A DNA stretch of 64,000 nt, taken from assembly GCA_973895155.1 (NCBI GenBank), contig OZ316891.1, forward strand, positions 16,519,651-16,583,650, written 5' to 3'. Source of the stretch: Marsupella aquatica (taxonomy: Eukaryota; Plantae; Marchantiophyta). Shown one piece after another: positions 15,777-37,600 of the stretch. The notes under the pieces are model-generated. The model saw only the letters and a list, made by a program, of their open reading frames with translations. It did not search any database and was not told where the DNA came from. The translations under genes and the position numbers were made by a program. Position 1 is the stretch's first letter. Each line of letters opens with the position of its first letter.

Positions 15777-15832
15777 TTAACAATCAGACCCAAGATAGAT
15801 GCGCACTTGATCAAAAATTGCAATGCACAAAT

Positions 15833-16441
15833 GAATCCAATACATCCCAATAAATTTGTTATGACCTGGCCTAGTTCAATTCTCTCCTCAGCAGTAGGCC
15901 ATCGGATCTCATCCGCTATGGCTTCATTGACACAAGATGCAACATAAATTGCATCATCACATACAGAAGACTTAGCCCAGTTCCAGTGTGCAGCCTTGAA
16001 GTAGATTGTATTATTGTGTTTCATGTATAAAATGAAGCTGAACAATTGCTACTCTAATGAAGCTTTGCAAGGCCGTCCCTTGAGCTTATGGCCTTGGCCT
16101 GTAGATCGTGTGTTCATTTTAATTGTTGGACAAACCAAAGCACATAGCTCGTGGAACTCCTCAAGAGTGAAAATAGTTAAATCTTTGAATAATTGAGGCG
16201 TTGCTGCATACTTTGATAGAAGATCGTCAATTGGTCTTGTAGGATTCACTGTTACTTGACTTTCAGTGGAAAGCTCAATAGATTGAAAGCAGTCAAGGAG
16301 TATTAGGTATGCCTGCATTGCCATCGTCATCAACATGAACAACTGAAGATTTAATTCTTCAAGCTCATCATTGATTTCGTTGACTGAGGCTGGGAGACCA
16401 TCCATATCCATTTTGAGCTCAAGGAACAGCTGCATATCCAT
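15833..16441 (-). pseudogene. HTH_Tnp_4/DDE_Tnp_4 (ISL2EU/Harbinger-like) transposase, truncated
   Basis: FKDLTIFTLEEFHEL, GRPCKASLE*QLFSFILYMKH, WNWAKSSV, IRWP...GCIGFI; cut just before the expected DGT. Confidence 0.8.
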
Positions 16442-16799
16442 GGTCCTTCATCGCTCCTCAACAATTTTAGAAGTTCAATGAAATTGAAAGGCGTGCTAAG
16501 AGCGAGCGGGCGCATGAGCAAGGAAATAGATTGATCTACATGTCAAGAGGGTTGCTACGAGCTCAAGCAGTCAAGAATCGCAAATGGTACGTAGTGTGAT
16601 GTCGGTTCTTTCCAAAAGACACTTGATCCTGCAACTTTCATTGTGAACGTTTCACTTGTTGCATTTTACCCCTAACTCATCTCACTTTAGTGTTAACTCA
16701 ACCTCCTTCCATCAGTGTAGTTTACTTTCCAATTATTGGTGCCTTTTGACTAATCATCCATGGTTAGCTGAATCTGTCCGTCAAACTATGTCTAAACTT

Positions 16800-16963
16800 T
16801 ACAAATATTTCTATTATTAGAATATTCCCAAATTTTTGATTAAAAAGACCCTAATGAATTTAATTCCTGGAGAATTTTTTAAAGTCTTCCCTTAGAACCA
16901 ATAAAGTGGCCCTATCCTTTGTCGCACTGGATGTGCCATTTTTGTGGAAGTGAAACCCCCGAG
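16800..16963. repeat. Lone transposon terminus matching the right half of the 14050/50382 MITEs
   Basis: AAGTCTTCCCTTAGAACCAATAAA...GTGGAAGTGAAACCCCCGAG; left boundary approximate; no matching left end found. Confidence 0.85.
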
Positions 16964-17522
16964 CCAATGAAGAGCTCAGAGAAGATAATGCAACTTGCTA
17001 CATTCATGCGGCAGAAAGAAAAGTTGAAGATGATGGACCAATGGGGCATCACCACCGAGACAGGAAACAGGAAAACAGGAACCTGTACCATGAATGTTTT
17101 GAAGTTTTGAGCCCACATTTTAGCGAAAGGTAACACTTGATCGGGTTCCTTACAACAACTAAATGCAGTCACTTCTCCACCAAATATACATAAACCATCA
17201 AGTGGGTCCCACCATACACTGGCTGCTGATACGAAACACACTCGAAATGTTACTTATCTTAAAAATATCATCGGAATCGGAACTGTATTCTATAATATCG
17301 CTAGGCGCTAACCAAAAACAAACCAAGATTTCTAGCCCATTTAAATAAACTTCTTGCAAAAATACTTACTAGTGTAAGAGTTTAGATGAGAAGAATTTCA
17401 TTCCCAGAATGTTAAGAAATGGAAATTTTGGTTGCAAACACAAGTACTTTAAAGCATCCATCCGGCCCATGAAATGAAAGAGATTCACTCAGAACGGGGC
17501 AAACTTATGCTAGCGCCGGGCG

Positions 17523-20500
17523 CTAGCCATATATATTAACCAAATGTGATCGTTGAAAAGAAATGAAACGTTGCACATGCCTAGCTAGAATGAGCCTCAC
17601 CTCACCTACAGTCAAAATTGGCTGACTAGCCAAAGTTGAATCCACGACATCTAGTTTGAGGATGTTGGTATAAACCCAATATAGATGCTTGCAAGGCATG
17701 AAAGGCCGTCCATGAGAATGGCGACGATAGAAGTCCTCACAAGAATAGCAGGGGAAAATACAAATCTGCACCTAGTAAGCGTTTGCCGTATGAAGTTTCT
17801 CTTGGGTCTGGATCTGAAATTGTTTGCCCCAAGAGTTTTCGATTGAAACATCAAACTGTTGAATCAATGTCATCGGCTCCTTGTTTGCAAATTCAATTCT
17901 TTTGTTGTGTCCTTGTGAAAGATTTGAACGTGGGACTGTATTTTTACCATTCCTACTCCGAAGGCGGATATTTGGCTCCAGAAGATTGATTTTCTCAGGG
18001 AAAACATTCACATTGATTCGCAAGTCAAATGGAGATGGAGGAGCCTGACGTCCGGCCTTTGGATTGATCGCAATCCCTTGCTGAGATAGGAATTGGACCT
18101 TAGCTTCCGAAAGATTCGTGCCCTTCAAAATGGGTAGGGTATGAGGAAACGGGGGAAGATTCACCACATTACGACGGGGCCGACTCTTATAGCATGCATT
18201 ATTGGGACAGAACCAAATCATCTCAGGATGTGGTTCTCCCCTGAACATGCGGTATCCTTTGACAACAATGCCAACTACACCATCCGTTGATGGGTAACCA
18301 ACCTTTTTCAGACGATTTTGACAGTCATCTCGATCCGATTTACCACCAAGAGATCCATTACATTGAGGCCCTGCACCATGTTTCGTCACTCTTCGCAGGT
18401 GCCAAGCACCTGGTCGCACATCTGTCTCCAACATAGATGAGTCATGGACAACCCTTTGGAGGTTCGAAGGTGCACTTTGCGGTGCTACAGAAGACCTTGT
18501 CACCCTCCTCCACGGCGGAGTACTCCAATGACAACCTTCTTCGATTTCGCTTTCCGACAGATCCACAACGCCAATGTTATCGTGAACAGGTCCCTCTGCA
18601 TTCGGAGAGAATTCGGTCTTGTTTAAGTTTTTCCTCTTCATGCCTCGAGTATTTGGTGATGTTACAAGAATAGTGTCATGCCGATGGGAGTCTTGTGCCG
18701 AGATGTTCCCAGAGGCCTGACCTTTCCTCTTCATAGACTTTGTTGTAACATCCCCATTGAATGGACCACTCCTTTCCAGGTCGAATTTAGCCGCACCGGA
18801 AAGAAGCATATTGGAAACATCTTGGAAAAGTTTTGAAGAACCTGCCTGGTCCGCCGAACGGAATGCCAATTCCCAAATTGTAGGTCCGGTTCCTCGGTGA
18901 AGACCTCTCTTATACGCCGTGTATGCTGCAACTTGTGAGACACCCCTGTTTTGGTCCATATCACATGCTTCGAATAAGCCAGCCTTTTTCTTAGTTTGCC
19001 AAGCCTTCATTATGGAATGCGCCGCCTCTGAAGTAGTACAGTTAGGAATCATAGCGCTTTCCTCCACGCTTTTGTTCTGCATCCACCATAGGAGCAGAGT
19101 TTAGGAAATATGAATTAGCCACGTGTACATAAAATCAATGACAGCACCTAGCGCTTGCAACATTCAAACTAAATTTTTGTAAATTTAAGAAACAAGTGGT
19201 CCATTAATACTAGCATCGGGCGCTAGTATCAAAAACCAGATAATGATGAACGAAACCTACGAGACCACACTAACTGAAAATAATGGTAGCGCCAAGCACT
19301 AGTATGAGTTCGAGTGGTTACTGGATGTTGAAACTCACCAAACAAATGAAATTTCCCCATTGACGCCATCGGACCACCCACCACGCCAACCAACCTTGGA
19401 GCATTCGAAGCTTCCCTGGAACACAATTCCCAGATCTCCACCATACATCGATATCCCTTGAAATTCTGTACGCTCCAAGAAATGTGGACGCGTTCCTTAA
19501 AGAGTCCCACATCTTCCGATGCTCATCTCGTTTTGCTTCCAATACACCTTCAATCGAGTGACGATGAAATGATTGATAGAAGTGAAACGCATCCGATCGC
19601 TCCTTTTCTGGGTTAGGATGTCCTCCGAAAAACACATTCCGAACAACATTCCATCCAGCTTGGGCATTGTCAGCCATGAATCCATGGATCACAACATTAT
19701 CCAACCCATTTTCATGGCAAACCTCAATCATCAATTTCTAGGCTTTCTCTAAAGACTCTGAATCTTCTGCTTTCAACTCACATGTGAAAATTGTGCAAAG
19801 AGCACGATAATTGTGATCATAAACATGTGTGCTAAAAGTTATCCAATCTTTTGTCATCCTCCTCATCACATCAAAACTGACCCATGCCCCTTCCAATGGA
19901 CCTCCAGGCTGCATTTGGTGCAATCAATCAACTCCAGATCCCTGCCCTTTTACAGTCATTTTGAAAATATGTGGCCTATCCTCTTTACAGCCTTGACCTG
20001 GGAGCATGTAACGTTGTAGAAAGGGAAAGATTATGCATTTCTGCATTTCAACAAGAAACTCCAACTCACCTTTGCCTTTTTGGTCTTGCCGAACGCTTCG
20101 AAAAAGAGATGCAAACTTTTGAGGGGTCAAAACTACCATTAACGACTCCCAAATTTCTCTTTCCTCCAATTCACCAATGTCATTGTTGGACACACAAAGA
20201 GCCTTCCTTAAAGATCCAGTTATAGCGTTCTTCAGATCCGATGGTGTGGCACACGGCGTAGCTTCATGTTGTTTCTTTATGAAGTTGTGAGCAATCTTTT
20301 CAACACCACGAGAAAAAACTTTTCGACTGGGATGAGCATGAGTTCCAACATGCACAGCAAGACGGGACATATGCTTACAAGTATCCGCATCTAGAAGTAG
20401 TTGAGGGTACATATAAAAAAGCATTGCAGGACATGCTTCAGTACAAAAGGGTAATTGTTGGCAATAGTGACAAACTACGCCACCCTCGTCAATCATCTTT

Positions 20501-21447
20501 CCTACGGTATGTGGCCCCGCGAGTTTGGTTGTCCCATCCCAAGCTTTACAATTTCTTCGTTTCTTCCGCAAAAGATAATCACACTTCTGATTCTGACATT
20601 CTAGTGCTCCTGTACACGTCACTTTACCAAATTCCCAGAACATTTTTGGTTGTACATTTGCAGAGGTTGGAAATATTCGTGTCCAGAAGTAGTAGTCTTT
20701 TGGCCGATCCATGTCACGGAGTCTTGAACCTTTTGAAAGAAGACCTTCTGCGGGAGGCAATTCAAATACAACGTTTCCATTGTATTTGCTTGGGAGGCAA
20801 TTCACCTGCTCATGCCTGAAATCACATGTTCGGATGAATCGCGATAGTTCACTATGGCCAATTGGTTTGAGAATAGCATCCATCGCGCTTGGACGGTAGA
20901 CAATACCTCCCACAACACCCCCCGCAACGTGTGTCTCAGAAGGAAACTAACCTTCCAACTTGACCGAAGTTCCCGGATTGGGCAATTTTTGCGAATGAAC
21001 GACAACATCCTCCTCATCACTATCGGAAAGGTGAATGACTGGAACCGGATGAATTTCATTCCTAACAAAATTATCTTGAAGATTGATATAGTATCTCTTC
21101 CCAGCATTCAATTGCCAAAATCTGACTCCATCGTCGATATCAAACAATGCATCACCAGCCTCATCTCCAGAAGCATCAACAGGTTTGATGGAAAGAATGT
21201 CATTGATGCCAATGTCAAATCTTCCACAAAGATAGTTCTCACTAACCTGTTTGTACATAGCGGAAGAACCCAAAGGAATGCGTACAATCTCTCCAGTTCC
21301 AGAACGCAAGCACAACTGAATTAGACATTGCGGAACAATAATCCCGAATTGACAAACAGAGAAAATGAGAGAATAGGAGAACATAACCCGACTTAAGTTA
21401 AGTGAATTCGTAACAAACTCCAGAAGATTATCGTTTGTGAACGACAA
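17523..21447 (-). pseudogene. MULE-like transposase: GCM-like Zn domain, DDE core, C-terminal SWIM finger
   Basis: GNVVFELPP, CTGALECQNQKC, CHYC..PFC..ACPA, HVGTHAHP; SFDVM, GFMADNAQAGWN, AFHFYQS, NCTTSEAAH; SCEDF..CKHLYWV. One frame with stops at 20947, 19924, 19738, 17772 and a predicted intron 19338-19077. Start uncertain. Confidence 0.8.
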
Positions 21448-21995
21448 AACGGGTACTAGTTGTAAAATATAGAAACATAAATGTCGTTTGTCGTTTTGCC
21501 AACGTCACTACGTACTGGTAACATCAATAATATAGTTTGAGAAACATGATCAGATATTTACTAGCGCTCGGCGCTACCATAAATAAGTCATGGAATTAAA
21601 ACCTAAAAACCAAACTTCATATGCTAGCGCCAGGCACTATCATTAATCCACTTCCATTTAAAGGTGAAAAACTCTATTAATTTTATTGGAATAACAAAAA
21701 TATCAAAAGACATTGAGTTTGTTTGATATAATTGTTGTTTATAGGAAATATACACGTATCAAATATAGTTAGCGCCCGGCGCTGACATAATTTCATGGCT
21801 AACATCAGTGTTAATGATGTTATTTTAGTGGTTTTTGAATGCTAGCGCCTGGCGCTAGTATCGAAAGGAATGACTTGTATTATCCCAACGGTTACATCTA
21901 ACGGTAAAGTGCATGAACGTACTCATTGTTTCACGCTTTTTGTAGTTGACTTCCTTAACAATAGCCTACGGATCATCGCTCCTCCCTTACCCCAG

Positions 21996-22329
21996 TTAAA
22001 AAGAGGCGTTACATATACTCATTCTAAACAATATCAGCCACTTGTCCTTGTCATGATTGGTGAGTGAGATCCTTTTCTTGTGCATCGATCTACCTCCCAT
22101 GATGTCAATCGCCCAAGTTTTAAAGGTTTCCTGCTTGTTCTTCTTGTACGGTAATTTGTTCAGAGCGTGAGAATAGACACTGGCTCTGTGTCGTATAAGC
22201 ACCTTCGCAAACTTTGGGGCTCCACGATGTAACCTTCAAGCGCTCCAAGCTCTCCAAGAGGGTATACCATGGTTCCGGAGGGAGATCAGGGTCATTGCGA
22301 GAGTACACAATCTTCATTCTCTGGGGCAT
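21996..22329 (-). pseudogene. Possible small frameshifted orphan ORF of the large transposon
   Basis: ORFs 22120-22329 and 21996-22202 can be joined into a protein-like sequence; no recognisable motif. Confidence 0.25.
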
Positions 22330-24174
22330 TCTATTCGCGTCGTGTTACAAGATCGAGCAGAGCGATTCCTTCGTCGAACACAACACTCTCGAGCCAGAAG
22401 CCAAGAAGGGGCAGAATGGAGACTGATGGCATGACCGATTACGTTTTGGGAGAGGGCAACGAGGTAGGACTTGGAATGGATGAAGTCATCTCCAAACACA
22501 TTATGTCATTTGGGAAAGATTTCTGGGGGAATGAGAAGGAACCTCCACGGATTCCGCTTTGTCGCCTGGTCCACATGGAGGTTGTTCGGACGTTACAGAA
22601 GGAGAGTGCGTCAATTGAGAAATTGAAAGACTCATTCCGAAGTAGTGGATACAATCCCAAGATAGGAATGCGGTTTTTTGTACAGCCGACCGATTCGGAT
22701 GGTGTGGAGAAAATCTGCACTAAAGAGATCAGGAAGAGTTGGGATGCAATTTGGGTTGCTGAGAACGAGAAGTTTGAGCTGGAGTGCGAGGCAGATCCTG
22801 CCTTTATGATCTTGAAAGACAAAATGTTCTCAGTGTTCGACGAGAATCATCAACTTTACTCGTGGACGATGGTCACAAAGGAAAATCCTAACAACGTCAA
22901 GTATCATCCCAGAGTTCTCTGCACAATTTTCAAGGGTGACAAAGCTTCGCAAATTCAGATTGAGGCGGCTATGCACACTGTGAACCAGTACATTTTTTGC
23001 CCTAGCTTGTAATTAACGATTTCCGCAATACTTGGTTATTACATAAATACAGTGTTTATGGAGTGTTTATAGAATAATACAGTGTTTATAGGCTAATTGA
23101 GTGTTTAAGTTAAACTAGCGCCCGACGCTAATAATTGAAAACCTGGCCTATTGCAGGTTAGGGCAGGCCGTTGTTGAACCGTCGTGGATCCTTGACGCAG
23201 ACAGAATCCGAAGGATTCTTTGTCACGATCTAGAGCAGTACAAGTCTATCATTGACAGCGCCAATTATGCAAAGTTTGAGTATATCAAACAGAAGACTCG
23301 AAAACATTCTTGGTACACAAGAAAAATGCCTCTGGAAGCTCTAGTCTATATTTTATGCGAAAACAAAATTAAAGCTTACACTAACCAGTTCAAGATGGAC
23401 ATGGCACTGGCAGCAAGTCAAGGCAATCCTTGGTCGGCTGATGACATCACAAAGCGGCAATCGCTCATGTTGAAAGAATCTACTAAAGATTGGTCCTCGA
23501 AAACGTCCAAAATCACTCCTCTTCTTAGTCCTGAGTTTGAAGATTTTCTAGGTACCTGTGCAGAGATGTATGTTTTGACAGAGAAAAACAAGTGAGAGAA
23601 AAAACCAGATTCGGTTGTTTGCACTATGGACCGTGCCAGACTCTTCACTGCAGTTTCAGCGCTTGATCCAAAATTGAGATGTACATTGCTCGTTGCTCAC
23701 TGTACTCCAGAGTTGAGAAAACAATTCTTCCACCCTTCGAGTGTGAACGATGATCCAGTGAAGCAGTGGTGCCACACATGGCAAGCATGGAATACCATCA
23801 AGGGAATTGCAATTGGGATGCTACACTCGGCAATTTCCGCAGCGATTGAAACGCTACCGGTTGACAGGCTTGCCTAGTCAGGGTGTGACTCGGTAGAAAA
23901 TCTGATTGAAGTAATTTCAAGTGAATTCCGAAGGTATGGAGATCTTGTGAAGGCAAAGTTCTTCAACACCATGTGGCCATCAAAATACCCTGATAAAGAG
24001 GTATATACCGAGAAAAATCAGAAGAGGGCCAAGAGGTATTTGTATCGTTTCTACATTTGGATGGAAATTCATTCCCCGGATGCTCTTTGGGCGTATCCAG
24101 CCGCATTTCACAAGTGGATTACTGTAAAGGAGGGAGATCTTGTTTGTGACTTATACTCGATGTATCTTGCCGAG

Positions 24175-24595
24175 TGTTGGGTATTTACTCTTACGTCTAG
24201 GTTAGGTATGACGTGGTTGGTACAACAACGTGGGTTGGTACAACTACGTGGTTAGGTACAACTACGTGATTAGGTACAACTATGTGGTTAGGTACAACTA
24301 CGTGATTAGGTACAACTATGTGGTTAGGTACAACTAAGTTGCACACTATATCATAAGAGGCATGTGTGCTTGGAGAGGTAGAACCAAGGCTCATTGTTAT
24401 GGAGCCACTTGAGAGATAGGGAGAGCTTACACTGTGGAGACTCGGTATAGCCGACGGGTTTAGAGTTCAGTAAAGCTCTCTTGTGTGTTCCCGTGGCCGT
24501 AGCCTCAAGGAGGTGAACCACGTATCTCTTGTGTCGACTATTGTGCGTTGGATGGTTCATGGGCTTGCCGTTGCGATCGTCGTCTATGCTCAACA
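24175..24595 (+). repeat. Copia 5' LTR with 18-bp tandem repeat (GGTACAACTACGTGGTTA, about 7 units)
   Basis: Direct repeat of 30228-30648. Confidence 0.97.
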
Positions 24596-25926
24596 ATTGG
24601 TATCAGAGCATGCTTGGGAGGTGACGTGTGTTCGTGACAGGATTTCATGACGGTTTTTCCAGCGTTGAGTGTTGGTGGATTTTCCAGAGTTCCATCGCAT
24701 GGAACTTGGAGTTTATGGGCTCAACGGATAGATCAGGGCAAGAGCTTTCTAACGGTGTGAAGAAATCATTGAACGGAGCTCGTGGTGCAGAGAGATCTAA
24801 GTTTTCGTCGTTCTGGATTTTGTGAAGAAAGTTGGCAATCGACTCGGAGGGAGAAGCGTCAAGTGTTTTGACTCAACGGAGAGATTGAGGCAAGACGATT
24901 GTTTTTGAGTCCGGGATTGGCTCTTTGATGCAAAGAGGAAGGCTAAGCAAAATCAATTAACTTGTTGGACTTGGTGACGGCACCAAGTGCAATTGATCAA
25001 CATTCGTTGTTGACAAGGTACCATTTTTTTCTCTTTGAAAAACTGATTCGAAATTGGCTATGGCAATTGAGAGAAATCTGTCATCTTTACCAATTTTTTT
25101 CTCCCTCGTTCTTTCCTCGTTTTGGGTGCTTCTTATATCGATCTTCATCGCCTCGGAGTCTAGTTTCCAAATCTGAAATCGGATCTTGATTTCGTCAAAA
25201 CCCGAGTGAGATATCTTGCGTTTGGTGTCGAGGGGTACATTCTGCCGTGTGTATTTTCTGCGCGCGCGACCAGATTTCGACGACGAAGGGTGGTAGGGGG
25301 TTTTGAGGGTTCGAGGACACATGTCAGCCCCTCGATTGTTCTTCCAAAATTCCCACAGGGCCTGTACAAGGGTCATAGAATATTCCAAAAAACCAGAGAG
25401 CTATTTTTTGACCGTCCGACAAAGATTTCATCCGCCGAACGGTAACTTTTTTGGTTATTTTTCGGCGAGGTCGTAGCCATTGAAGTTGGCAATGTAGCGC
25501 ACCAATCACATCGCAATTCTGACAACGGGTTGTACTTGGTATTTCGGTTATTCCCTGAGGTGGTCAAAACGGGGGAGTTTCCCAAGGTTTTACCCACCTT
25601 GACCGAAATTTGAATAACTTTTCCGTCAAATTTCAATTTTGATTTTGGTTTTCAGTATTGGACTCCTAGCTTTGTGGGCTACGCGGCGGTGTTGAGTTTC
25701 GAGTTTTTTGAGAAGTTGTGAAAAACAACATTTTTTGTGACTTTCTCATATGAGTGATTCGGAGGAGTTTTTCGAAGACGTGGAACTTGAAGCATGAGGA
25801 TCACCGCGGAGGTTTCAGGGGCAGAGAGAGGAGCAGGAGGAAGAGCACGTGACACCGATACCATCACTGGTGCGGCGTGTGGTGGAGGAAGCAGTACTAC
25901 TACCGGAGCTCACGGTAAAGAAGAAG

Positions 25927-26784
25927 ATGGGGACTTTCAAGCTTGGGGGACCCAAGTATGAAGTGACAAAGTATGATGGGAGCTCTGACTACTTGCTATG
26001 GGAGAAGCAGGTGAAGGGAGTGCTTTATGCGTCAGGGATGGGCCAACTGCTGAGCCCTCGTGAAGACGATGTTAATGAGAAACAATGGGACCGCATGCAG
26101 GAGCAGGGAGTGTAGTGTGTTACACTCTATCTCATGCCTCCCATCATCAAGCAGTTAGGTGCACATAAGGATTGCATGTCCTTGTTTGCGGAATTGCAGA
26201 GCAAGTATCACCGCAAGGAGTTGTCGAACCGGCTCTACACTTCCTACAAACTGATGAGTTTCAGGATGAAGGAATCTGGTACGAAGTTGCAAGACCATGT
26301 GGATGCTTTCAACGACATGGTCGTTGACTTGGAAAACCTTGGGGAGACTTTGAATGATGAGACGAAGGCTCTACAGCTTCTTAGTTCATTGCCTCCATCT
26401 TACCAGTCCCTATCACGAGTGTTGTTGCATCGTGATAGGGATACCATTTCATACAATGACGTGGTAAGTTCTCTGCTTAGTGATGATCTTCAGCAGAAGA
26501 TGCACATCACGTCACAGCCTTCATCATCTGGTGCTGCCCTCAATGTTAACCGTGGGAGGAGTATGCAGCGACCAACTGGGGACCGTAGAACCCAGTTTAG
26601 ATCTAAATCCAGATCTAAGTCCAAGGGTAAATCCCCTCAGAGGAGGCAGGTGACATGTTGGAAGTGCAACCAAGTTGGACACTTCAAGCGAGACTGTAAG
26701 GGAAAGGCAGCGGAAACTTCATCGGCAAATGTGGCTAGGGCTGATGGAGAAGCTGATTTACTCAATGATGAGTATGTTTTATGA
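25927..26784 (+). CDS. gag: Copia gag (CCHC knuckle), in-frame TAG at 26113
   Basis: KYDGSSDYLLWEKQVKGVL, LLSSLPPSY, CWKCNQVGHFKRDC. Confidence 0.9.
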
Positions 26785-29700
26785 AGCCGGGGGTATGCCC
26801 TGTGCACGTCATCTAGGAGAGCAGATGATGTGTGGATTCTTGATTGTGCTTGCTCTTTTCATATTTGTTACATTCGTGAGTTTTTCAGTTCTTACTCTGT
26901 TTCAAACGGTTCAGTTCTGATGGGAAATGATCACTCCTGTCAAATTGAGGGAATTGGGTCTGTGAAGATTCAAATGTTTGATGGCGCTGTGCGCATAGTG
27001 TCCGGAGTCAGGTATGTACCTGGCATGCGTAAGAATCTGATTTCACTCGGTGTGTTGGATTCAAATGGTCATCAATGGAGCGTTATTGATGGTGAACTTC
27101 AAGTCAGGTCGGGAGAGACAGTGATTTTGAAGGGGAGTAGACAAAAGAATTTGTATGTGTTACAGGGCAATACTGTATGTGGAGAGGCCAATGTAACCAA
27201 GTCTCACGAGGAGATGACTCAACTGTGGCATTCACGGCTAGGCCACATGAGTGAGAAGGGTTTGGCTATCTTACGGAAGAATGGACTCATTTCTGATTTG
27301 CAATCTTGTAAATTAGAGTTTTGTGAGCATTGCATTCTTGGAAAACAGCATCGTCGTGCTTTTGGTGTTGGAACTCATCGTTCCAAAGCGGTTCTTGAGT
27401 ACATACATAGTGACGTGTGGGGTCCATCCCCGACTCCCTCACACTCTGGAAAGTTGTACTATGTATCATTTATTGATGATTACTCAAGATTTGTGTGGAT
27501 TTATTTCATGACGCATAAGTCTGATGTCTTATCCATTTTTAAGAAGTGGAAGGCCCAGGTGGAGAATCAGACTGGAAACACGATCAAGTGTTTGGATACA
27601 AGGGTGAAGAGTCTGAGGTCAGACAACGGCGGGGAGTACACTTCAATGGAATTTGAAGAGTACTGTTCAGAACAGGGGATAACTCGCCATCTCACCACAG
27701 TTTATACTCCGCAGCAGAATGGTATCGCTGAGAGGCTCAATCGGACACTGTTGGAGCGGTCATGGAGTATGTTGAGCCAATCAGGTTTACCACAAGAATT
27801 TTGGGCAGAAGCTGTCAATACCGCAGCTTATTTGGTAAATCTTTCTCCTTCTAGTGCTATCAATTTCAAAACGCCGTTTGAGATGCGCTATAAGCGGCAA
27901 GCAGACTATCATGGCTTGGTAATTTTTGGAAGTGATGCATATGCTCTCACACCAAAGCAGAATAGGACCAAGTTGGATCCTACCTCCAGGAAATGTGTTT
28001 TTCTTGGGTACCAGAGTGGTGTGAAAGCCTATAGGCTATGGGATCCTATTGCCTGTAAGCTCGTTGTCAGTAGGGATGTTTCCTTCAATGAATCCAGATT
28101 ATTGAAGGAGGGGGAGAATACTCAGGTCTCCCGTACTGACAAAGGAAAATCTCCTATCCCGGATCTCGTTGAGGGGGAGATTGGTTATGAGGTGCATGAC
28201 CGGAGAGAAGGAGTTGCTCCAATTATGGAGCTGGTTCCTATGCCAGAGGAACCAGAGGAGTTTGTTGATGCTGTTGAGCTTCAAATTGTACCAGCACACG
28301 CAGATCAACCGGAGTCATCGGCTAGAAGAACATCTGGTCGCACTGTACGCGCTCCATCAAGGTATGGACAGTGGATTGATTCATCTCAACTGCAAGAGGA
28401 TGATTTTATAGCTGATGATGAGGGTGATGCGTTAATTTTGGAAGAAGGAGAACCTTCTTCATTTCATGAGGCAAGTGCTTCAAAAGAGAAGCAAAAGTGG
28501 ACTGCAGCAATGCAAACGGAGATGCAGTCACTAAAGGACAACAAAACTTGGGAGCTTGTTAAGCTGCCTAAGGGTCAGCAAGTGGTGGACAGCAAGTGGA
28601 TTTACAAGCTGAAGGATAATTCCATAGGAGGTGGATCGAAGGTCTACAAGGCTAGATTGGTAGCAAAGGGATTCACACAAGAGAAAGGTGTGGATTACAA
28701 TGAGGTCTTCTCACCAGTTGCTAAGTACTCTACAATACGACTATTGTGTGTACTTGTTGTAATGTTTGGTCTGCTCCTAGATCAGATGGATGTTGTCACA
28801 GCTTTCCTCTATGGCACATTGGAAGAGGTGATCTTCATGAGACAACCGCTAGGTTTTGTGAAGAGAGGACAGGAGGAATTGGTTTGCAGATTGCTGAAAT
28901 CCTTGTATGGGTTGAAGCAGTCACCAAGACAGTGGAACAAGCGGTTTGACGATTGGATTCGGTCACAAGGTTTTCACAGAAGTGTATTTGACCCTTGTGT
29001 GTATTTGAAACCGGTGAAGAATGTTGTCTTTGGGTTCATTGTTTTAGTACTTTATGTGGATGACATGCTAATTGCAGCCAAGGATAGGTCTGAGATTGTT
29101 AAGCTCAAGGCACTGCTTAGTGCAGAGTTTAAGATGAAGGACTTAGGGCCAGCTAAGAGGATTTTGGGTATGGAGATCACTAGGGACTTGGAGGCTGGCA
29201 AGCTATGGTTGACGCAAAGCAGTTATGCGAGGAAGGTAATTGCAAGGTTCAACATGGAGAATAGCAAGCCAGTAAGTACCCCGTTGGCTCCACACTTCAA
29301 GTTATCATCAGCGTTCTGTCCTATGGATGACATAGAGAAGGGGTTGATGTCAAAGGTTCCATATGACAAGGCAGTGGGGAGTCTCATGTATTTGATGACT
29401 TGCACTAGACCTGATCTTGCCATGGCTATGGGCAAGGTGAGCAGGTACATGTCGAATCCAGGGAAGGTACACTGGGAAGCAGTGAAGTGGATTATCAGGT
29501 ACTTGAAGGGTACCGTGGATCATGGTCTTTTATTTGATGCGAATGCAAAGAATGCTAGATCATTGATTGGCTATGTAGATTCTGACTATGGACAAGATTT
29601 GGACCGAAGGAGATCAACAACAGGATACGTGTTCACACTTGGCGGTGGATGCATAAGTTGGAGGTCTACTTTGCAGAAGTGTATTGCTCAGTCTACTACA

Positions 29701-30036
29701 GAAGCGGAGTATGTTGCAGCTGCGGAAGCAGCAAAGGAAGCGATTTGGTTGGATAGACTTATCACTGAAATGGGATTGCCACAGGGGAATGTGAAGCTCC
29801 ATTGTGATAGTCAAAGTGCGCTCCACCTTGCTGTGAACCAGGTGATGGACAGCAGAGTGAAGCACATTGACGTCAGGTACCATTTTATCAGGCAGGCTGT
29901 GTCTGATAATTTGTTTGAGCTAGTCAAGATTGATGGTAAACTCAACCCGGCTGACGCATTTACCAAAGTGATTCCTTTGGAGAGTTTCTCTAGACACCGT
30001 GACGTATTGCAGGTTTTGCAATTGCATCACAAGTAG
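26785..30036 (+). CDS. pol: Copia pol (protease-integrase-RT-RNase H), in frame with gag beyond a TGA
   Basis: WILDCACSFHI, WHSRLGH, LRSDNGGEY, QQNGIAER, YKARLVAKG, LYVDDM, DSQSA, KHIDVRYHFIR. Confidence 0.97.
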   Translation, partial: SRGYALCTSSRRADDVWILDCACSFHICYIREFFSSYSVSNGSVLMGNDHSCQIEGIGSVKIQMFDGAVRIVSGVRYVPGMRKNLISLGVLDSNGHQWSVIDGELQVRSGETVILKGSRQKNLYVLQGNTVCGEANVTKSHEEMTQLWHSRLGHMSEKGLAILRKNGLISDLQSCKLEFCEHCILGKQHRRAFGVGTHRSKAVLEYIHSDVWGPSPTPSHSGKLYYVSFIDDYSRFVWIYFMTHKSDVLSIFKKWKAQVENQTGNTIKCLDTRVKSLRSDNGGEYTSMEFEEYCSEQGITRHLTTVYTPQQNGIAERLNRTLLERSWSMLSQSGLPQEFWAEAVNTAAYLVNLSPSSAINFKTPFEMRYKRQADYHGLVIFGSDAYALTPKQNRTKLDPTSRKCVFLGYQSGVKAYRLWDPIACKLVVSRDVSFNESRLLKEGENTQVSRTDKGKSPIPDLVEGEIGYEVHDRREGVAPIMELVPMPEEPEEFVDAVELQIVPAHADQPESSARRTSGRTVRAPSRYGQWIDSSQLQEDDFIADDEGDALILEEGEPSSFHEASASKEKQKWTAAMQTEMQSLKDNKTWELVKLPKGQQVVDSKWIYKLKDNSIGGGSKVYKARLVAKGFTQEKGVDYNEVFSPVAKYSTIRLLCVLVVMFGLLLDQMDVVTAFLYGTLEEVIFMRQPLGFVKRGQEELVCRLLKSLYGLKQSPRQWNKRFDDWIRSQGFHRSVFDPCVYLKPVKNVVFGFIVLVLYVDDMLIAAKDRSEIVKLKALLSAEFKMKDLGPAKRILGMEITRDLEAGKLWLTQSSYARKVIARFNMENSKPVSTPLAPHFKLSSAFCPMDDIEKGLMSKVPYDKAVGSLMYLMTCTRPDLAMAMGKVSRYMSNPGKVHWEAVKWIIRYLKGTVDHGLLFDANAKNARSLIGYVDSDYGQDLDRRRSTTGYVFTLGGGCISWRSTLQKCIAQSTTEAEYVAAAEAAKEAIWLDRLITEMGLPQGNVKLHCDSQSALHLAVNQVMDSRVKHIDVRYHFIRQAVSDNLFELVKIDGKLNPADAFTKVIPLESFSRHRDVLQVLQLHHK

Positions 30037-30227
30037 AGTTTTCTTAAACATTCATTGTAATTACTGATATATGCTCTTCCTCATTCCTATGTATTAGGCT
30101 ACGGCTTAGTTCTGGTTTGCTCTAGTTAGAGAGGGAAATCGGTTTGGTTTCTGTCCAGAACTTCCCGCTGAGGGATCATATACATTGGCAGTATTACTCT
30201 CCCCTAGACCAGAGTCAAGGGGAAGAT

Positions 30228-30648
30228 TGTTGGGTATTTACTCTTACGTCTAGGTTAGGTATGACGTGGTTGGTACAACAACGTGGGTTGGTACAACTAC
30301 GTGGTTAGGTACAACTACGTGATTAGGTACAACTATGTGGTTAGGTACAACTACGTGATTAGGTACAACTATGTGGTTAGGTACAACTAAGTTGCACACT
30401 ATATCATAAGAGGCATGTGTGCTTGGAGAGGTAGAACCAAGGCTCATTGTTATGGAGCCACTTGAGAGATAGGGAGAGCTTACACTGTGGAGACTCGGTA
30501 TAGCCGACGGGCTTAGAGTTCAGTAAAGCTCTCTTGTGTGTTCCCGTGGACGTAGCCTCAAGGAGGTGAACCACGTATCTCTTGTGTCGACTATTGTGCG
30601 TTGGATGGTTCATGGGCTTGCCGTTGCGATCGTCGTCTATGCTCAACA
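30228..30648 (+). repeat. Copia 3' LTR
   Basis: Direct repeat of 24175-24595, followed by TSD CCGAG. Confidence 0.97.
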
Positions 30649-33462
30649 CCGAGGGTAAACTACCCCCAAGGGAAATGTCCGAGTGGGAAAGAATTCACTG
30701 CCCATGGTACCTTGACACAGACAAGTGGGATTCACCCTTTGATGAAGTGGAGAATGATTGGTTTCTGAAACTTGCAAAGTCGCAGATCCTTCCCAACATT
30801 GTTTCTGAGATGAAGCAAGGTCTCCTTAGCGACATCGATAAATCTTCTACGGAGTTACAGACAATCTGTGAGACAGTAGTTGTCCATGTATATAGGAGCC
30901 ACAAGCCACGAGGGAAAGTTAAAATAGACACTGCAGTGCCAAGTGCCTCCACGCGATCCGGAAAGAAACGTAAGTTTTCAATCTTTTTTTCAAATGTTTG
31001 CTAGCGCCCGGCGCTGCCATTCTTGTGATTCAATCTTCATCAGTGTTTGCTTGAAGGCCCTAATCCCACATTCTTTGCAATATGTTCATAGGTCAAAAGA
31101 AGTCAGATGCAGATGGCACAAATGATATGAAGGTTACTCCAGAAGCTTCAGAAGCAAATACTGGCGCTTTGCCAGATCCACTTACACCAGTTAATTTTGG
31201 GAAATCGATTGTCCCAGTCAATGCGACGAGTACAAAAAAGAAAAGCAGAAGGACTCGAGATGCTGGACAATCAGAACGGGATTCTCAGGCTGCCACTGGG
31301 CTCCAACGTGATGTTGGGGATTTTAAAGCCAAGTCGTCTCGTCATTGTTTCGTTGAGACCAGTGTCAGTGAACTTGTGGACAGTGTGTTTAATAAGGAGG
31401 GGAAGCCGGAATGGGTAAATGATGCCGAAAAGTGGGGGAAAGACCTGATCAAATCTGGATGCCGGCTGAAAGGAGTGGTGAGGGGTGGGAAGCAAAGACC
31501 TTTTGGTGTTGATGCTGGTTTTATCTACTTGCCAACTGGACTAAAACCGACTTTGCTTGACAGAAAGGTCCCTAAATGGAACGTCCCCGACTGTACCCTA
31601 GCCCGATCCTTTTTCCGGGCAATGGATCCTTTTTTGTTGGATGACAAAATTATTGCGATACTCCATACGGGGGAGTATGATCAAATTTCGCAGGTCATCT
31701 CCGCTTGTCAGGAGTCCAAGAAATTCCAATGTCTATGTACACATAATGTCGTCATGGGGTTCCCAATGTACAAAGCGAAGTCTGATTTACAGGTAATTTT
31801 GTTGATCCTTTTGCTAGCGCCCAACGCTATTCATATTGTCTATTACTTTCTTTTTTTATTTGACCTTATTTCAGGTAAACTATTCAATGTGATTTTGTGG
31901 ATTATTTGCTAGCGCCCGGCGCTATTGTAATCTAAGGGTCCTTCCTCTATTTTGTTCCCTTTTCAGGTATTCACTTTACGTTTGGATGTATTTTCGCAGA
32001 TATCATCCAAGGTGAAAGTCCCAAAAGATCCTAAGTTCAAACCCCTTTCAAAAACAGAGGATCCTTCCATTACAAATCTGATCGGACTTCCCTTCGCGAA
32101 GGTTGATACAACTCCAGAGCTTGAATTTGCCAGGAATGCCAGACTACATCCAGGATTCATGCAGTCTGTGTTGGAACTAATTACGTGTCCAGGAGATATT
32201 GTTCTGGATCGGGCGGTAGGTTCGGGGAGTACATTTGTTGCAGGTGATAATTGTGGTCGATTTGTAATTGGACTCGAGAATAGGAAGGAGTTTGTTGAAA
32301 CCGCTTCTAAGGTATTTCTGGATCTTCTTACTCCAAAAGAGTCTGAGCCCAAAGCCCCTCCAAAGTCTTCAATTTCAAAACGAAAGAGAGACAAACTGAA
32401 GTCTGTCTTAAATTTTGATTCTGAAGATGAGGATGAGATAGAAGAGGGGGAAGAAGAGGAAGATCCTAACATTCCCAAAGTGTCTCTTACCGGAGAAGAT
32501 CCAGGATCTAATCGAGGGAGTGACAACAGAGACTCTTCTGAGTAAGAAGCTTCCGAGTAAGCTCTTAAGCAAACCCGGTTTTTTAGTAGATTACCTTATT
32601 CTCTCTTCGATTTCTCAATTTTTTTCATTTTTTAAAATATTCTTGGCGTTGACATAAAACCCTAAACTTCTTGTCCTCAGGTCAGACTGGAATCTTCGCC
32701 GGCGTTTCCAACTCAGAAGAAAAGTAGCTAGGCGATATATTAAAACTCCCGAGAAACCATTTGTACTACCTTCCTATGCTGAGAATATTGCTAGATGAAC
32801 TGATAGTGTGCGGACCCTCCATTGGGAGCATAAAGGTTTGAGATTAAGGAGAGGGTCTGATAGAAAATTTATTCGTAGTCGATATGTTGATGATATGGCC
32901 AAGAACGAATTTTTAGACATGGAGGCAAAATCCACCGACAGGTCCGAGTCAAGTGAATCAGAATTCTCAGATTGATTTGCCTCAAAAGGGTATTTTGGGA
33001 TTTATATACACTGAAGTTATACTAGCGCCGGGCGCTACTGTTATGTAACCTGCAAACATCGTTTATTCAAATGTATTCGATACATTGGATACTTTTGTGG
33101 TGTATCTTTATTCTATTTTGTTCTCTATATTGTAATGTTTTTATGGTAGCGCCCGGTGCTACCATAATTTAATGTCCATGATCATATACCCGCATATTTT
33201 TCAATTTCGTTTTGTCCATTTTTGAGGGTCAGTTTACTTCCTAAGACCGGACATTCCGAGTGGTCGAAAACAATTGACCTGCAACTCCGTTTATGTTGGG
33301 TCTATTTCTCAATTGAATTATGCTAGCGCCTCACGCTACTAAAACATATTTCGGAAACATTGTCCGTTAAGTGTTTTCCACATGTCAGCGACAATTGTTT
33401 TGTTTGTTCCTTCTATTATTAACGTAAACATTTTAATACTATAATATTAGCGTCGGGCGCTA

Positions 33463-34392
33463 CTATAACTGTATGACGGTCAAGGCAATCTTACAATGAT
33501 TCTCCCGTACGCTCTGGATGACGTCAATGGAAGTTTTGAGGTAATCTTTTGTCCTGTTCTAAGTTTGTTTGGCCTGTCGCGACTCGCATGTGAGCTGGTA
33601 CCGGATTTTTCTCATCCAAACGGCCACTTCACGTCACAACGGGACTTTGGATGCCATAAACATTTTGGGATTCCAATACTGGTTTTGGTCAACCGTTTCT
33701 GAATGGAGACGAAGGTAAACGTCGCAAGTATCATGTGAGATGGGAGTGACCGTTCCATGTTGAACGGGTAGTTTGGGGACTTTGAGGATGCAACGTCCAT
33801 CCCCTCCCTCATTACAATGGGCGTATCCAGGTCGAACGGGTTTGCTTATAATACTTGGGAGATTAAATCCCGACTGCCTAGTTTCACTATTGCTTTAGTG
33901 GTTTCTGTTCCCACTTTCGATAATCTTCGAGCTCTTTCGCTGACCGGGGTCGTATTGATAACTATATCTTTGAATCTGCCATCCGCTGCCTAGACGTGTC
34001 TTACCATGAATAACCCGAGGAGAATCTCTGTGGCCTCTTTTCAAAGACACACCACAATCATTTCGGAGGAGGGCTCGGTTCCAGAAACTGAGCAGTCTGA
34101 ATGGTCGGAGACAAGTGCTTTCCGCAACCGTTTTAATCTCCCCCAAGACAAAGCCATTAGTCCTGGTGACAATCTGATCCCATGGCTGAGGGATTCTCCG
34201 CCTAGGAGATTTGCAGAGCGGTTTACGATTCACTGGCCACCTCCTCCTTATAGTCCAACTCGGGAGGATGAGATGAGGAAACAGGAAGAACTTGGCCGTG
34301 TTGATTTCCAAAACACGACCATTCCTGGCGTGTTTCCCCGAACCAGTGATGAGCGAGTTCCGTCGATGGCGTTTGTGAGGAACCGTGAGCAC
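33463..34392 (-). pseudogene. Orphan ORF of the large transposon with three in-frame stops
   Basis: The frame continues past TAA 33895, TGA 33634 and TAG 33559 to a TAG at 33463 that abuts palindrome 33448-33462. Confidence 0.35.
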
Positions 34393-34482
34393 GGTTTCGT
34401 TCCCGATAGAGCCCGATCTAATGCTGGAGTGAACGATGAATGTGGCTCATCGACCAATGAGCGGACTAGCACCCGGCGCTAG
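34006..34482 (+). CDS. Hypothetical 158-aa orphan ORF of the large transposon
   Basis: ATG-initiated; its stop overlaps the end of palindrome 34467-34481; no known motif. Confidence 0.35.
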   Translation: MNNPRRISVASFQRHTTIISEEGSVPETEQSEWSETSAFRNRFNLPQDKAISPGDNLIPWLRDSPPRRFAERFTIHWPPPPYSPTREDEMRKQEELGRVDFQNTTIPGVFPRTSDERVPSMAFVRNREHGFVPDRARSNAGVNDECGSSTNERTSTRR

Positions 34483-35309
34483 CGTAGGTCTCTAAGACTA
34501 TGGTGCCCATAGCGCTCAAGTTTTTCCGAATGTGATGAAGACTTCGTCGGGACTCGACCGGAATTTAGAAATCTTGTCGTTAGATGTAGCCATTTTGGTT
34601 ATCGATTGTGTGGAGTTCGGTGAAGTGCCTAGCACTAGTTTACTATTCGGCCATTTTAATCGAGACGCGTCGGATGCGCGTAGCTTTTTGAAACTTTCAT
34701 ACCTTCCGTTTATGGTGTGGTTATGCGGATCACTTTAATCTTTTGTAAGCACCTGGCGCTACCATCTTACTAAAAAAAATTGTATCGCAAGACTTTGTGG
34801 ATTTTGGGGTGGTGTTCAATTATGCGAATTGGTTGGAGTTGGCTCTTTTGGATGTAAAACCCTAAACGTTGGTCCGATGGTCCCGGTGGTTTCGTCGTAT
34901 TTATCACGTCGGCCTCCATCTGACTGAGCAATATAACTAGCGCCCGACGCTAGTATCTTCACCGGTCCGACGGAGGCGCCCGAGTTTCTTGTTTAGAGCC
35001 CATTCTGTACAATTACAATGGCAACTCCTGGTGCGTGCCTGTGCTTTTTAGTATAACCCAGGTTCAAATGTACCGTTCCCCTCGGCTTAGTATTCGAGCG
35101 CCTGTTGCTATTCTACATCTTTTTTTTTGGACTTGACTACAATCTTCTAAACACCCCGTTTTGGGTGTCAAGTTCTTGCTTAACAACAAAAAAGTTTCCG
35201 GTATTTTTTGTTTAAGTTTGGTGTATTCGGTTTCCTGTTTCCTGTCATCGGTTCCTGTTTTGGGTTTCCTGTTTTGGGTTTCCTGTTTCCTGTCTTATGT
35301 AAATACCCC

Positions 35310-35761
35310 GACCAATGCTTGCTCAAGTTGAAGGAGGATACCAACAGTATTATAGACCAAGAGGCTACAATTGTTATCTTGATGCGCTTGAGAGTAACCC
35401 TTCACTCCATTTGCAGGTGCTACATCAAGTCTTTGCACAACATATATGAAGATTCTCACACTCTTCTCCAAGGGTACATATTGACGTAGAGAAGCTTGAG
35501 CTTGCCCATGCTCATTGCCAGGCCAGTCACTCATGTCGTGGACCACAAACCAGGCCTTTGGTTGAACATGCCCCGACATCTGGTAGGTCAATAGTGCAAC
35601 CCCAACTGGTTAAGCATGCCCATTCTGCACCTATGCTTGTCCCTTCTTGCAATTACTATGGGAATGCAGATCGTAAGGCTAATGAATGTGATGTCCGGGC
35701 TGGGGATGAGCTCTACTATGAGTTTTGTGGGAAGTCTGGACATTTGGAACCTGTATGGTAA
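35310..35761 (+). pseudogene. Retroelement gag-like remnant (insertion target; upstream part at 16964-17042)
   Basis: Decayed zinc knuckles CNYYGNADRKANEC and YEFCGKSGHLEP. Confidence 0.5.
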
Positions 35762-37069: not shown

Positions 37070-37600
37070 TTGTGATATCTCTTAATCGAGAAAGGGTTTC
37101 CAATGAGCCTCAGATTGACAAATTTTGTCAAGTTCCAAATGAGTTGTTGAATTTCTTTGCCTTTCCAATGAGTGAGTATAAGAAATATTGATCATGAGTC
37201 CATGAGTTCTTTTAGCTTTCCAACATGATCGAGTCCAACATTGACAAATTTTACGTCAGATTTTGTCACGTTACTAAAGAGATCATGAGGTTTTCAATTT
37301 CTCTAGCTTTCTAATGTGTGACATTGAGATTATTCGTTAAGAATTACATAGATCATGAGTATCTGAATTTCTCTAGCTTTCCAATGAACCTCACATTGAT
37401 AGATTTTGTCAAGTACTAAGGAGATGATCGGTTTTTAATTTTACTTTAGTTTTCCAATGAGTGTGACATTGAGAGATTTTATCAAGACAATACTAAAGAG
37501 GTCACGAGTTTCTAAATCTTGATCTTGAGTTTTCCAATGAATCAAACATTGACAGATTTTATCAAGTACTAAGGAGATTGATTATTTAGTTTTACAATGT
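37070..37600. repeat. Degenerate tandem repeat, roughly 60-70-bp unit
   Basis: Recurrent CTTTCCAATGA...ATTGACA(A/G)ATTTT(G/A)TCAAG, about 7-8 times. Confidence 0.65.

What the first reader, a model, noticed from the sequence alone, without database searches (positions are those of the whole stretch)
17043..35309. Large DNA transposon combining a MULE-like transposase, a ParB-DNA-methyltransferase-like gene and its own palindrome array
Seen: a bounded element (TIRs, TSD GACCAAT, host frame restored on removal), about 11.8 kb without the nested Copia. It holds two divergent spliced genes, small orphan ORFs and about 20 copies of one palindrome that I did not see elsewhere in the window. Established: ParB/Srx domains are nucleotide-binding modules, bacterial ParB loads at palindromic parS sites, and some plant MULEs (VANDAL/VANC) encode sequence-specific anti-silencing proteins that bind motifs repeated in their own non-coding DNA. 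Inference: this is a self-recognition or self-marking system in which the ParB-MTase protein binds the element's palindromes to mark it, protect it from silencing or aid transposition. ParB-fused MTases may already be catalogued in early land plants, so any novelty lies in the linked cis-array and the element architecture. This copy is decayed.
Basis: partly seen in the sequence, partly recalled or inferred. Interest (0 to 1): 0.92.

Follow-up and report, generated by a model that had tools for sequence, protein, structure and literature searches.

The report
Mutator-like transposon studded with private palindromes
A decayed 12-kb plant jumping gene carries a second, bacterial-style gene (a likely ParB domain plus a methylase-like part that lacks the usual catalytic motif) and repeats one mirror-image DNA word 19 times outside its coding exons, likely as landing sites for its own protein to keep its copies active, a design already proposed for algal transposons but untested.

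Summary
The element spans 17044-35309 (11,787 bp without a young Copia), with short TIRs and a TSD best read as 8 bp (GACCAATG). It carries a Mutator-like DDE transposase head-to-head with a six-exon gene of about 1,200 codons.

The palindrome TAGCGCC-N-GGCGCTA occurs 19 times in the element, never in the two genes' exons, in 4 of 5 introns, and once in the other 52 kb. A distant relative keeps three copies in the same intron, whose other sequence is no more alike than shuffled DNA, with the central base missing.

The ParB/Srx call rests on a conserved DGNHR motif and weak hits; structure prediction failed. The methylase-like domain keeps the SAM-binding motif, but 0 of 34 family members have the catalytic motif, so self-marking by methylation is unlikely.

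Best reading: the accessory protein likely binds the palindromes and keeps the element active, as VANC does; binding is untested. ParB accessory genes with inverted-repeat arrays are already in print for red and brown algae. This is a new land-plant, Mutator-like, pseudo-enzyme variant.

The parts
17036..17043 (.). Left target-site duplication GACCAATG (8 bp)
   Evidence: an X5 contig starts at 17044
17044..17082 (+). Left TIR (20 of the first 31 bases match the right end) with 3 ACAGGAA subterminal repeats, likely transposase sites
17772..19076 (-). Transposase exon 2, with the third catalytic residue (E in TSEAAHS)
   Evidence: E also in L001
19077..19338 (-). Transposase intron with palindromes at 19211 and 19287 and a degenerate third at 19142
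19339..21384 (-). Transposase exon 1: Cys/His zinc-finger region, D..D and DxxH; premature stops at 20949, 19926, 19740; start codon uncertain
21385..22268 (.). Divergent intergenic region with 4 palindromes (21562, 21625, 21770, 21843)
   Evidence: bridged by X5 contig 21341-22269
22269..22987 (+). Gene 2 exon 1: ParB/Srx-like domain (FDENHQL here, FDGNHRL in 5 of 5 covering homologues); start codon uncertain
23157..24174 (+). Gene 2 exon 2, first part; no family match; stops at 23593 and 23875
24175..30648 (+). Nested Copia LTR retrotransposon (not part of the system); no palindromes
30654..30969 (+). Gene 2 exon 2, second part
31092..31792 (+). Gene 2 exon 3: N-terminal half of the methylase-like fold; YLPT where motif IV is expected (31520 on)
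31967..32541 (+). Gene 2 exon 4: SAM-binding motif I region (DRAVGSG, IGLE), then an acidic tail
   Evidence: Pfam N6_N4_Mtase E 2.8e-8
32681..32975 (+). Gene 2 exon 5 (predicted from splice signals and frame), stop at 32796
17296..34952 (.). 19 copies of TAGCGCC-N-GGCGCTA at 17296, 17511, 19211, 19287, 21562, 21625, 21770, 21843, 23116, 31002, 31815, 31910, 33023, 33147, 33324, 33448, 34467, 34747, 34938
34006..34482 (+). Intact orphan ORF of 158 codons; its last codons overlap the palindrome at 34467
35232..35309 (-). Right TIR with 6 ACAGGAA subterminal repeats
   Evidence: an X2 contig ends at 35309
35310..35317 (.). Right target-site duplication GACCAATG

Best explanation
This is a decayed copy of a two-gene, Mutator-like DNA transposon whose second gene likely encodes a non-catalytic DNA-binding protein that would recognise the palindrome repeated through the element's introns and spacers and would keep the element's copies active. 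Shown: the ends, the two genes, the motif and its placement, its conservation in a distant relative, and the lack of the methylase catalytic motif across the family. Inferred: the protein binds as a dimer, one subunit per 7-bp half-site; the ParB/Srx-like domain binds a nucleotide and controls loading or spreading; the methylase-like fold serves for DNA or SAM binding and not for methyl transfer; the outcome is protection from silencing, as for VANC. The transposase would use the separate ACAGGAA repeats at the ends.
For: 19 of 20 window matches lie in the element (shuffle mean 0.04); 0 of 19 lie in the exons of the two genes (P about 4e-8); 4 of 5 introns carry one. Spacing is fixed: 17 of 17 best sites have the same spacer and no other spacer from 0 to 7 occurs. 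Similarity among copies falls to near background beyond about 15 bp from the centre, as for a binding site and unlike a duplicated unit. In L001 (64% protein identity) the orthologous intron is 44.7% alike against 44.6% for shuffles, yet holds three copies with the same half-site and no central base. DGNHR is intact in 5 of 5 covering homologues. VANC21 binds a motif enriched in introns, intergenic and terminal non-coding DNA of its own element (PMC5735166). Beta-class methylases work as dimers with one subunit reading DNA (PMC7544214). ParB-family KorB reads a palindromic operator and VirB relieves silencing (PMC13768133).
Against: No binding data. No DNA-binding domain was identified in gene 2: the roughly 440-residue middle region matched no family convincingly. 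The ParB call is weak: best profile E-values 0.02-0.3, models of pLDDT 34 and 49. L001 is too short to show whether it carries gene 2, so the motif is tied directly only to the transposase intron there. In L001 one copy sits in a perfect hairpin of about 60 bp, which fits a fold-back origin. VANC motifs are asymmetric and sit in tandem repeats, unlike these. 17 of 24 motif mismatches are C>T or G>A, so this copy was probably methylated and not protected, at least after it died. A Mutator transposase can itself act against silencing.
Confidence: 0.45

Rival explanations
1. The gene 2 protein binds the palindromes, but its job is mechanical: it coats and compacts the 12-kb element or recruits the transposase so that the ends meet, like MURB for MuDR.
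For: The same motif evidence as for the best explanation. The TIRs are short and poorly matched (20 of 31). MURA and MURB interact (PMC12973397 passages). The ParB-like domain is closest by features to DUF3723, a conserved Starship gene.
Against: The sites are spread through introns and the divergent promoter region and not concentrated at the ends. No interaction data.
Confidence: 0.2
2. The palindromes are fold-back DNA or RNA hairpins that arise and spread by template switching, or sites for a host transcription factor, with no element-encoded reader.
For: One L001 copy extends to a perfect hairpin of about 60 bp and L001 arms are identical over 12 bp. An earlier AI note (e1-9896733) read a moss-transposon intron array as self-amplifying filler (unchecked).
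Against: In the window, flanks beyond 15 bp are near random (0.28 against 0.26). The half-site survives where the intron is otherwise saturated. The L001 form has no central base, which suits a dimer site better than an RNA loop. Only 1 match lies in the other 52 kb. No Rfam match.
Confidence: 0.15
3. The transposase itself reads the palindromes through its zinc-finger region and activates its own copies; gene 2 is cargo with another role.
For: Seven Cys and three His are almost invariant in the transposase family. AtMu1c transposase alone activates and hypomethylates cognate copies (10.64898/2026.08.24.746577, section 7). In L001 the motif is seen only with the transposase.
Against: AtMu1c binds at TIRs, and this element has a separate terminal repeat, ACAGGAA, 3 times left and 6 times right. 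Palindrome arrays recur with ParB-like genes in unrelated transposase superfamilies (AI notes).
Confidence: 0.12
4. Gene 2 is an active DNA amino-methylase with an unusual active site and marks the element with 4mC or 6mA at or near the palindromes.
For: Motif I and the following acidic residue are kept. The Ectocarpus protein is predicted to make 4mC or 6mA. Marchantia has active 4mC enzymes. The register of motif IV rests on a weak profile alignment (probability 0.3%).
Against: 0 of 34 aligned family members have (D/N/S)PP(Y/F/W); the first position varies among Y, A, F, S, C and R. No such motif is present anywhere in the two fullest homologues P0030 and P0036 (read by eye).
Confidence: 0.08

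Closest known systems
Sola1-1_Ec32 accessory gene, Ectocarpus (PMC12477816; passages seen)
   Same: Gene on the strand opposite the transposase; protein of similar size (1104 aa against about 1,200); ParB-like domain plus N4C/N6A methylase domain; self-binding proposed.
   Different: Sola transposase in a brown alga; the methylase is presented as predicted active; no palindrome array in the passages seen (0 occurrences of 'palindrom'; figures and supplements not seen). Homology to this protein was not tested.
Plavaka PAG2/PAG3 of red algae (bioRxiv 10.1101/2025.02.11.637652; passages seen)
   Same: ParB-like accessory gene with inverted repeats in the element, proposed to bind its own sequence; a PF01555 methylase accessory gene; homologues reported in Chondrus Mutator elements.
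   Different: ParB is fused to a 2OG oxygenase and the methylase to a SET domain, in separate genes; the repeats are tandem arrays beside PAG3, not single sites spread through introns.
VANDAL21/VANC21, Arabidopsis (PMC5735166; passages and section 8 seen)
   Same: Mutator-like element, accessory gene, element-specific motif in introns, intergenic and terminal non-coding DNA.
   Different: VANC has DUF1985/DUF287, neither of which was hit here. Its motif is a 9-bp asymmetric word in tandem repeats; here a 15-25-bp palindrome with unrelated flanks. VANC function is shown by experiment; this one is not.
Phage ParB-N6/N4-methylase fusions (PMC12704722 passages; AcaML1 gp25)
   Same: Same domain order, ParB-like at the N-terminus and beta-class methylase at the C-terminus; a plausible ancestry.
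   Different: Phage proteins are about 430-510 aa with DPPY intact; this one is about 1,200 aa with a long unassigned middle and no DPPY. Direct profile comparison was not significant.
KorB/OB of plasmid RK2 and VirB (PMC13768133; passages seen)
   Same: ParB-family regulators on mobile elements that load at dispersed palindromes. OB (TTTAGC-G/C-GCTAAA) shares the outer TAGC...GCTA with this motif.
   Different: KorB has a GxxRxR motif and an HTH; here DGNHR and no HTH found. The likeness of the motifs may be chance and was not tested.

Membership tests
Mutator/MULE superfamily | TSD of 8-11 bp (PMC6446971) | tested here: met
   8 bp GACCAATG, from the ungapped TIR register and contig ends; one insertion site only, and 7 bp is not strictly excluded
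Mutator/MULE superfamily | DDE triad with a C/DxxH motif and short D2-E spacing | tested here: met
   D1 in 15 of 17 rows, D2 in 13 of 13 rows without a gap, D/CxxH in 11 of 11; spacings 67, 26 and 127 aa; E also in L001. The reference spacings for MULE versus hAT and P are recalled, from no call
Mutator/MULE superfamily | Match to MULE/IS256 transposase profiles | tested here: inconclusive
Mutator/MULE superfamily | Long TIRs (commonly hundreds of bp; variable) | tested here: not met
   About 31 bp with 20 matches; short-TIR MULE groups are listed in PMC6446971, so this weighs little, but I file it only as Mutator-like
ParB/Srx fold | Phosphate-binding signature (GxxRxR, DGQHR, DGQQR type) | tested here: met
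   FDGNHRL in 5 of 5 covering homologues; signature described in PMC4619093; broken in the window copy
ParB/Srx fold | Significant profile or structural match | tested here: inconclusive
   PHROG 1033 ParB-like in 3 of 5 homologues (E 0.05-0.27), TIGR03187 in 2 of 5 (E 0.05-0.06), DUF1015 in 1 of 7 (E 0.019), atlas scores 0.89-0.95 to DUF3723 and ParB_N clusters; models too poor to search
Canonical ParB/parS clamp | HTH DNA-binding domain, C-terminal dimerisation domain, ParA partner | tested here: inconclusive
   No HTH family hit in the middle region; no ParA-like ORF seen in the element
Canonical ParB/parS clamp | CTP binding and sliding from palindromic sites | not testable with these tools
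   Needs biochemistry
Beta-class N4C/N6A DNA methyltransferase | Motif order IV - TRD - I with SAM-binding motif I | tested here: met
   Pfam PF01555 E 2.8e-8 on the C-terminal motif I region; best PDB hits DpnA, CcrM, M.RsrI, though weak (E 0.06-0.7)
Beta-class N4C/N6A DNA methyltransferase | Catalytic motif IV (D/N/S)PP(Y/F/W) (PMC7544214) | tested here: not met
   0 of 34 rows (window plus 33 homologues); consensus [YAF]LP[TN]
VANDAL/VANC | VANC domains DUF1985 and DUF287 | tested here: not met
   No such Pfam hit on the gene 2 pieces scanned
VANDAL/VANC | Element-specific motif dense in non-coding DNA | tested here: met
VANDAL/VANC | Motif carried in tandem repeats | tested here: not met
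   Flanks beyond 15 bp near background
VANDAL/VANC | Sequence-specific hypomethylation in trans | not testable with these tools
   Needs transgenic methylomes
Algal ParB-methylase transposon accessory proteins (Sola1-1_Ec32 type) | ParB-like plus methylase-like gene opposite the transposase | tested here: met
Algal ParB-methylase transposon accessory proteins (Sola1-1_Ec32 type) | Sequence homology to the algal proteins | not tested
   Their sequences were not retrieved

The most novel reading that the evidence does not exclude
A bacterial-type, nucleotide-gated ParB clamp works on plant chromatin: it loads at parS-like palindromes planted in the introns and spacers of its own transposon, spreads over the element and displaces silencing, much as VirB counters H-NS, with a dead methylase fold as the sequence reader and a one-base change in half-site spacing as the way sister families part their specificities.
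Probability: 0.2. Interest if true: 0.9.

Novelty: new variant of a known kind. Interest (0 to 1): 0.62.

Why it matters
By the Bostrychia paper's account, VANDAL is the only transposon shown to bind and modify its own sequence. ParB-type accessory genes are suspected of doing the same in algae, but I found no test of it. This family gives a sharp, testable pair: one short palindrome, under selection across saturated introns, and a sister form that differs by one central base as a built-in specificity control. It also suggests that the methylase half is a pseudo-enzyme, which changes the prediction from 'marks itself' to 'reads itself'. If binding and anti-silencing hold, it would be a second, independent anti-silencing system in land plants, built from prokaryotic parts.

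Tried and rejected
No genome is held for this window, so intact copies could not be aligned end to end.

Structure: AlphaFold2 of the ParB-like exon gave pLDDT 33.7 alone and 49.4 with 7 sequences. Foldseek on PDB and BFVD and VIA-align found nothing meaningful; these are uninformative, not negative.

Searches without result: longer fused homologues of the ParB exon, 0 of 447 candidates (weak evidence); transposase relatives in viral contigs, 0 of 34 candidate stretches; in plasmids, none; the ParB homologue in phages, only E 4-6. The extended palindrome in viral contigs gave 1 match, inside a phage coding sequence, taken as chance. Rfam: none. No RNA holder was listed, so splicing and expression are predicted only.

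Rejected: a captured methionine-synthase fragment in the orphan ORF (Pfam E 2.6e-4, below cut-off; no MetE among PDB hits). Rejected: 7-bp TSD as the best reading. Rejected: motif inside larger tandem units in this copy. G-U tolerance in the arms was inconclusive because the copy is dead. No helical phasing was seen among 11 spacings.

Dropped rows: P0054 (low-complexity hit) was left out of alignment A3, and P0051 does not cover motif IV. Alignment A1 used 16 of the 21 transposase homologues.

Literature: four searches listed no paper on a land-plant transposon with such a gene. Iyer et al. 2011, cited for green-algal cases, was not read, and no supplements were read; either may already list bryophyte or lycophyte members.


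Full report
The observation. The element is real. Its ends align without gaps from 17044 and 35309 and are flanked by GACCAATG. Contigs of public runs begin at 17044 (X5) and end at 35309 (X2), as expected where many flanks join one shared end. I therefore correct the TSD from 7 to 8 bp, within the 8-11 bp given for MULEs (PMC6446971, passages). A Copia element (24175-30648; LTRs 421 bp, 2 differences; TSD CCGAG) interrupts gene 2. Without it the element is 11,787 bp. The 'restored host frame' adds little, since two frames are briefly open across the site and the flank is a repeat.

The transposase. The minus-strand gene has two exons, about 1,116 codons and three premature stops. It has 21 homologues among 4,430 candidates; the five with names come from the liverworts Riccia sorocarpa and Calypogeia fissa. 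The family keeps D, D and D/CxxH with spacings of 67 and 26 residues, E lies 127 residues after the second D, and seven Cys and three His upstream are nearly invariant. That spacing is Mutator-like by my recall of the superfamilies, but no MULE profile matched, so I call it Mutator-like only.

Gene 2. Six coding segments in five exons (one split by the Copia) join through GT-AG introns into one frame of about 1,207 codons with three stops. No RNA run was listed, so the model is predicted. Exon 1 has 6 homologues among 58 candidates; the 5 that cover the site all read FDGNHRL, where the window has FDENHQL, and all four runs laid show G at 22843. This resembles the DGQHR/DGQQR signature of the ParB/Srx fold (PMC4619093, passages). 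Weak hits agree: PHROG 1033 ParB-like, TIGR03187, DUF1015, and atlas clusters with DUF3723 and ParB_N. None is significant alone and the structure models failed, so ParB/Srx is likely, not proven.

The methylase-like part. Exon 4 matches N6_N4_Mtase at E 2.8e-8 over motif I. Exon 3 has 35 homologues; 5 of the 10 looked up are Calypogeia fissa proteins on contigs of five different lengths. Where beta-class enzymes carry (D/N/S)PP(Y/F/W) (PMC7544214, passages), 0 of 34 rows do; they read mostly [YAF]LP[TN]. The register rests on a weak profile alignment, and MAFFT placed it four columns off, but the two fullest homologues hold no such motif anywhere. The loss is thus a family trait, not decay of this copy. 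One ParB-exon homologue (P0063) and one methylase-exon homologue (P0040) each lie on an ENA contig of 7,196 bp, probably the same contig; I could not fetch it.

The family. Six runs of three coded organisms in four studies hold the element. All four runs laid on the left half cover 30 of 30 bins; on the right half three cover 30 and one 27 of 30. In X5 one contig runs from 21341, inside the transposase, to 22269, and the next from 22273 through the ParB exon, at similar depth (95.7 and 99.5); another stops matching at 24174, where the Copia begins. Two transposase stops are sense codons in most or all of the depth of those runs. No contig spans the element, so both genes within one TIR pair is shown directly only in the window.

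The palindrome. The word is TAGCGCC-N-GGCGCTA with weaker ATRS arms. It occurs 19 times in the element, not in the Copia and once elsewhere. None lies in the exons of the two genes (P about 4e-8); one overlaps the end of the orphan ORF. Four of five introns carry it. Pairwise identity among half-sites is 0.86 over the first 7 bases, 0.47 and 0.37 to base 15, and 0.28 beyond, against 0.26 for random non-coding positions. The only related locus from metagenomes (1 of 402 candidate stretches) has the same intron position. Its exons are 61% and 55% alike in DNA and its intron 44.7%, the same as shuffles (44.6%), yet the intron holds three copies of the same half-site with no central base. Against my reading: one of these extends into a perfect hairpin of about 60 bp, and 17 of 24 mismatches in the window copies are C>T or G>A.

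How it likely works. A sharply bounded, symmetric site with fixed spacing, kept where neighbouring DNA is saturated and confined to one element, is best explained by a dimeric protein that the element encodes. The transposase has its own candidate sites at the ends, and AtMu1 transposase binds TIRs (abstract and section 7). Gene 2 joins two folds known from palindrome-reading dimers. The placement copies that of VANC21 targets (PMC5735166, passages and section 8). I put 0.45 on non-catalytic binding with anti-silencing, 0.2 on binding for transposition, 0.15 on no element-encoded reader, 0.12 on the transposase and 0.08 on active methylation.

What is known. The Ectocarpus paper describes a ParB plus N4C/N6A methylase gene opposite the transposase of Sola1-1_Ec32 and proposes self-binding (PMC12477816, passages). 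The Bostrychia preprint describes ParB-like PAG3 beside tandem inverted repeats and the same idea (passages). ParB-methylase fusions are common in phages (PMC12704722, passages; AcaML1). Iyer 2016 reports ParB-HTH fusions in chlorophytes and chytrids and few such enzymes in land plants (PMC4738411, passages and section 8). Also seen as passages: the Marchantia 4mC preprint, the Starship preprint, PMC13768133 and PMC12973397. Earlier AI notes of this scan report like arrangements in other genomes; they led me to the algal papers and are not counted as support.

Verdict. A real, well-bounded feature and a new variant of a recently described kind. New, as far as searches reach: a land-plant Mutator-like carrier, family-wide loss of the catalytic motif, and a conserved dispersed site with a one-base spacing change between relatives. 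Binding and function are untested. Interest 0.62.

Noticed in passing
window 34006-34482 (+): Intact 158-codon orphan ORF in an otherwise decayed element, covered by contigs of other runs; sub-threshold Pfam hit to methionine synthase not confirmed. Possibly a third gene.
   Followed up: partly
L001 1160-1230: One palindrome extends to a perfect inverted repeat of about 60 bp, which hints at template-switch copying as the way sites are made or corrected.
   Followed up: partly
window 38052-38426 (-): A stretch about 74% like the Copia LTR and primer-site region, in opposite orientation: a second, older LTR element beside the transposon.
   Followed up: no
window 15749-16447 (-): Two decayed ORFs that look like a PIF/Harbinger transposase by recalled motifs; no Pfam hit.
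   Followed up: partly
window 16839-16963, 14212-14330, 50555-50672: The left flank belongs to a repeat present three times in the window; the element inserted into another repeat, with a decayed Cys/His knuckle-like ORF to the right (35450-35761).
   Followed up: partly
window 62119-62133: The only motif match outside the element (2 mismatches), inside another repeat; no protein of this family matches nearby.
   Followed up: partly
window 32542-32680: The last intron of gene 2 is the only intron without a palindrome.
   Followed up: no
window 22431-22988: By language-model features the ParB-like exon is nearest to fungal DUF3723, the conserved Starship cargo gene, and to an unnamed cnidarian cluster, which hints that DUF3723 has a similar role.
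   Followed up: no
window 17044-35309 without the Copia: CpG observed/expected is 0.81 in the element, against 0.63 in the Copia and 0.54 in the rest of the window; compatible with a history of less methylation, not tested further.
   Followed up: no
window 37089-37578, 43158-43366, 45494-45759: Short tandem-like repeat clusters outside the element.
   Followed up: no
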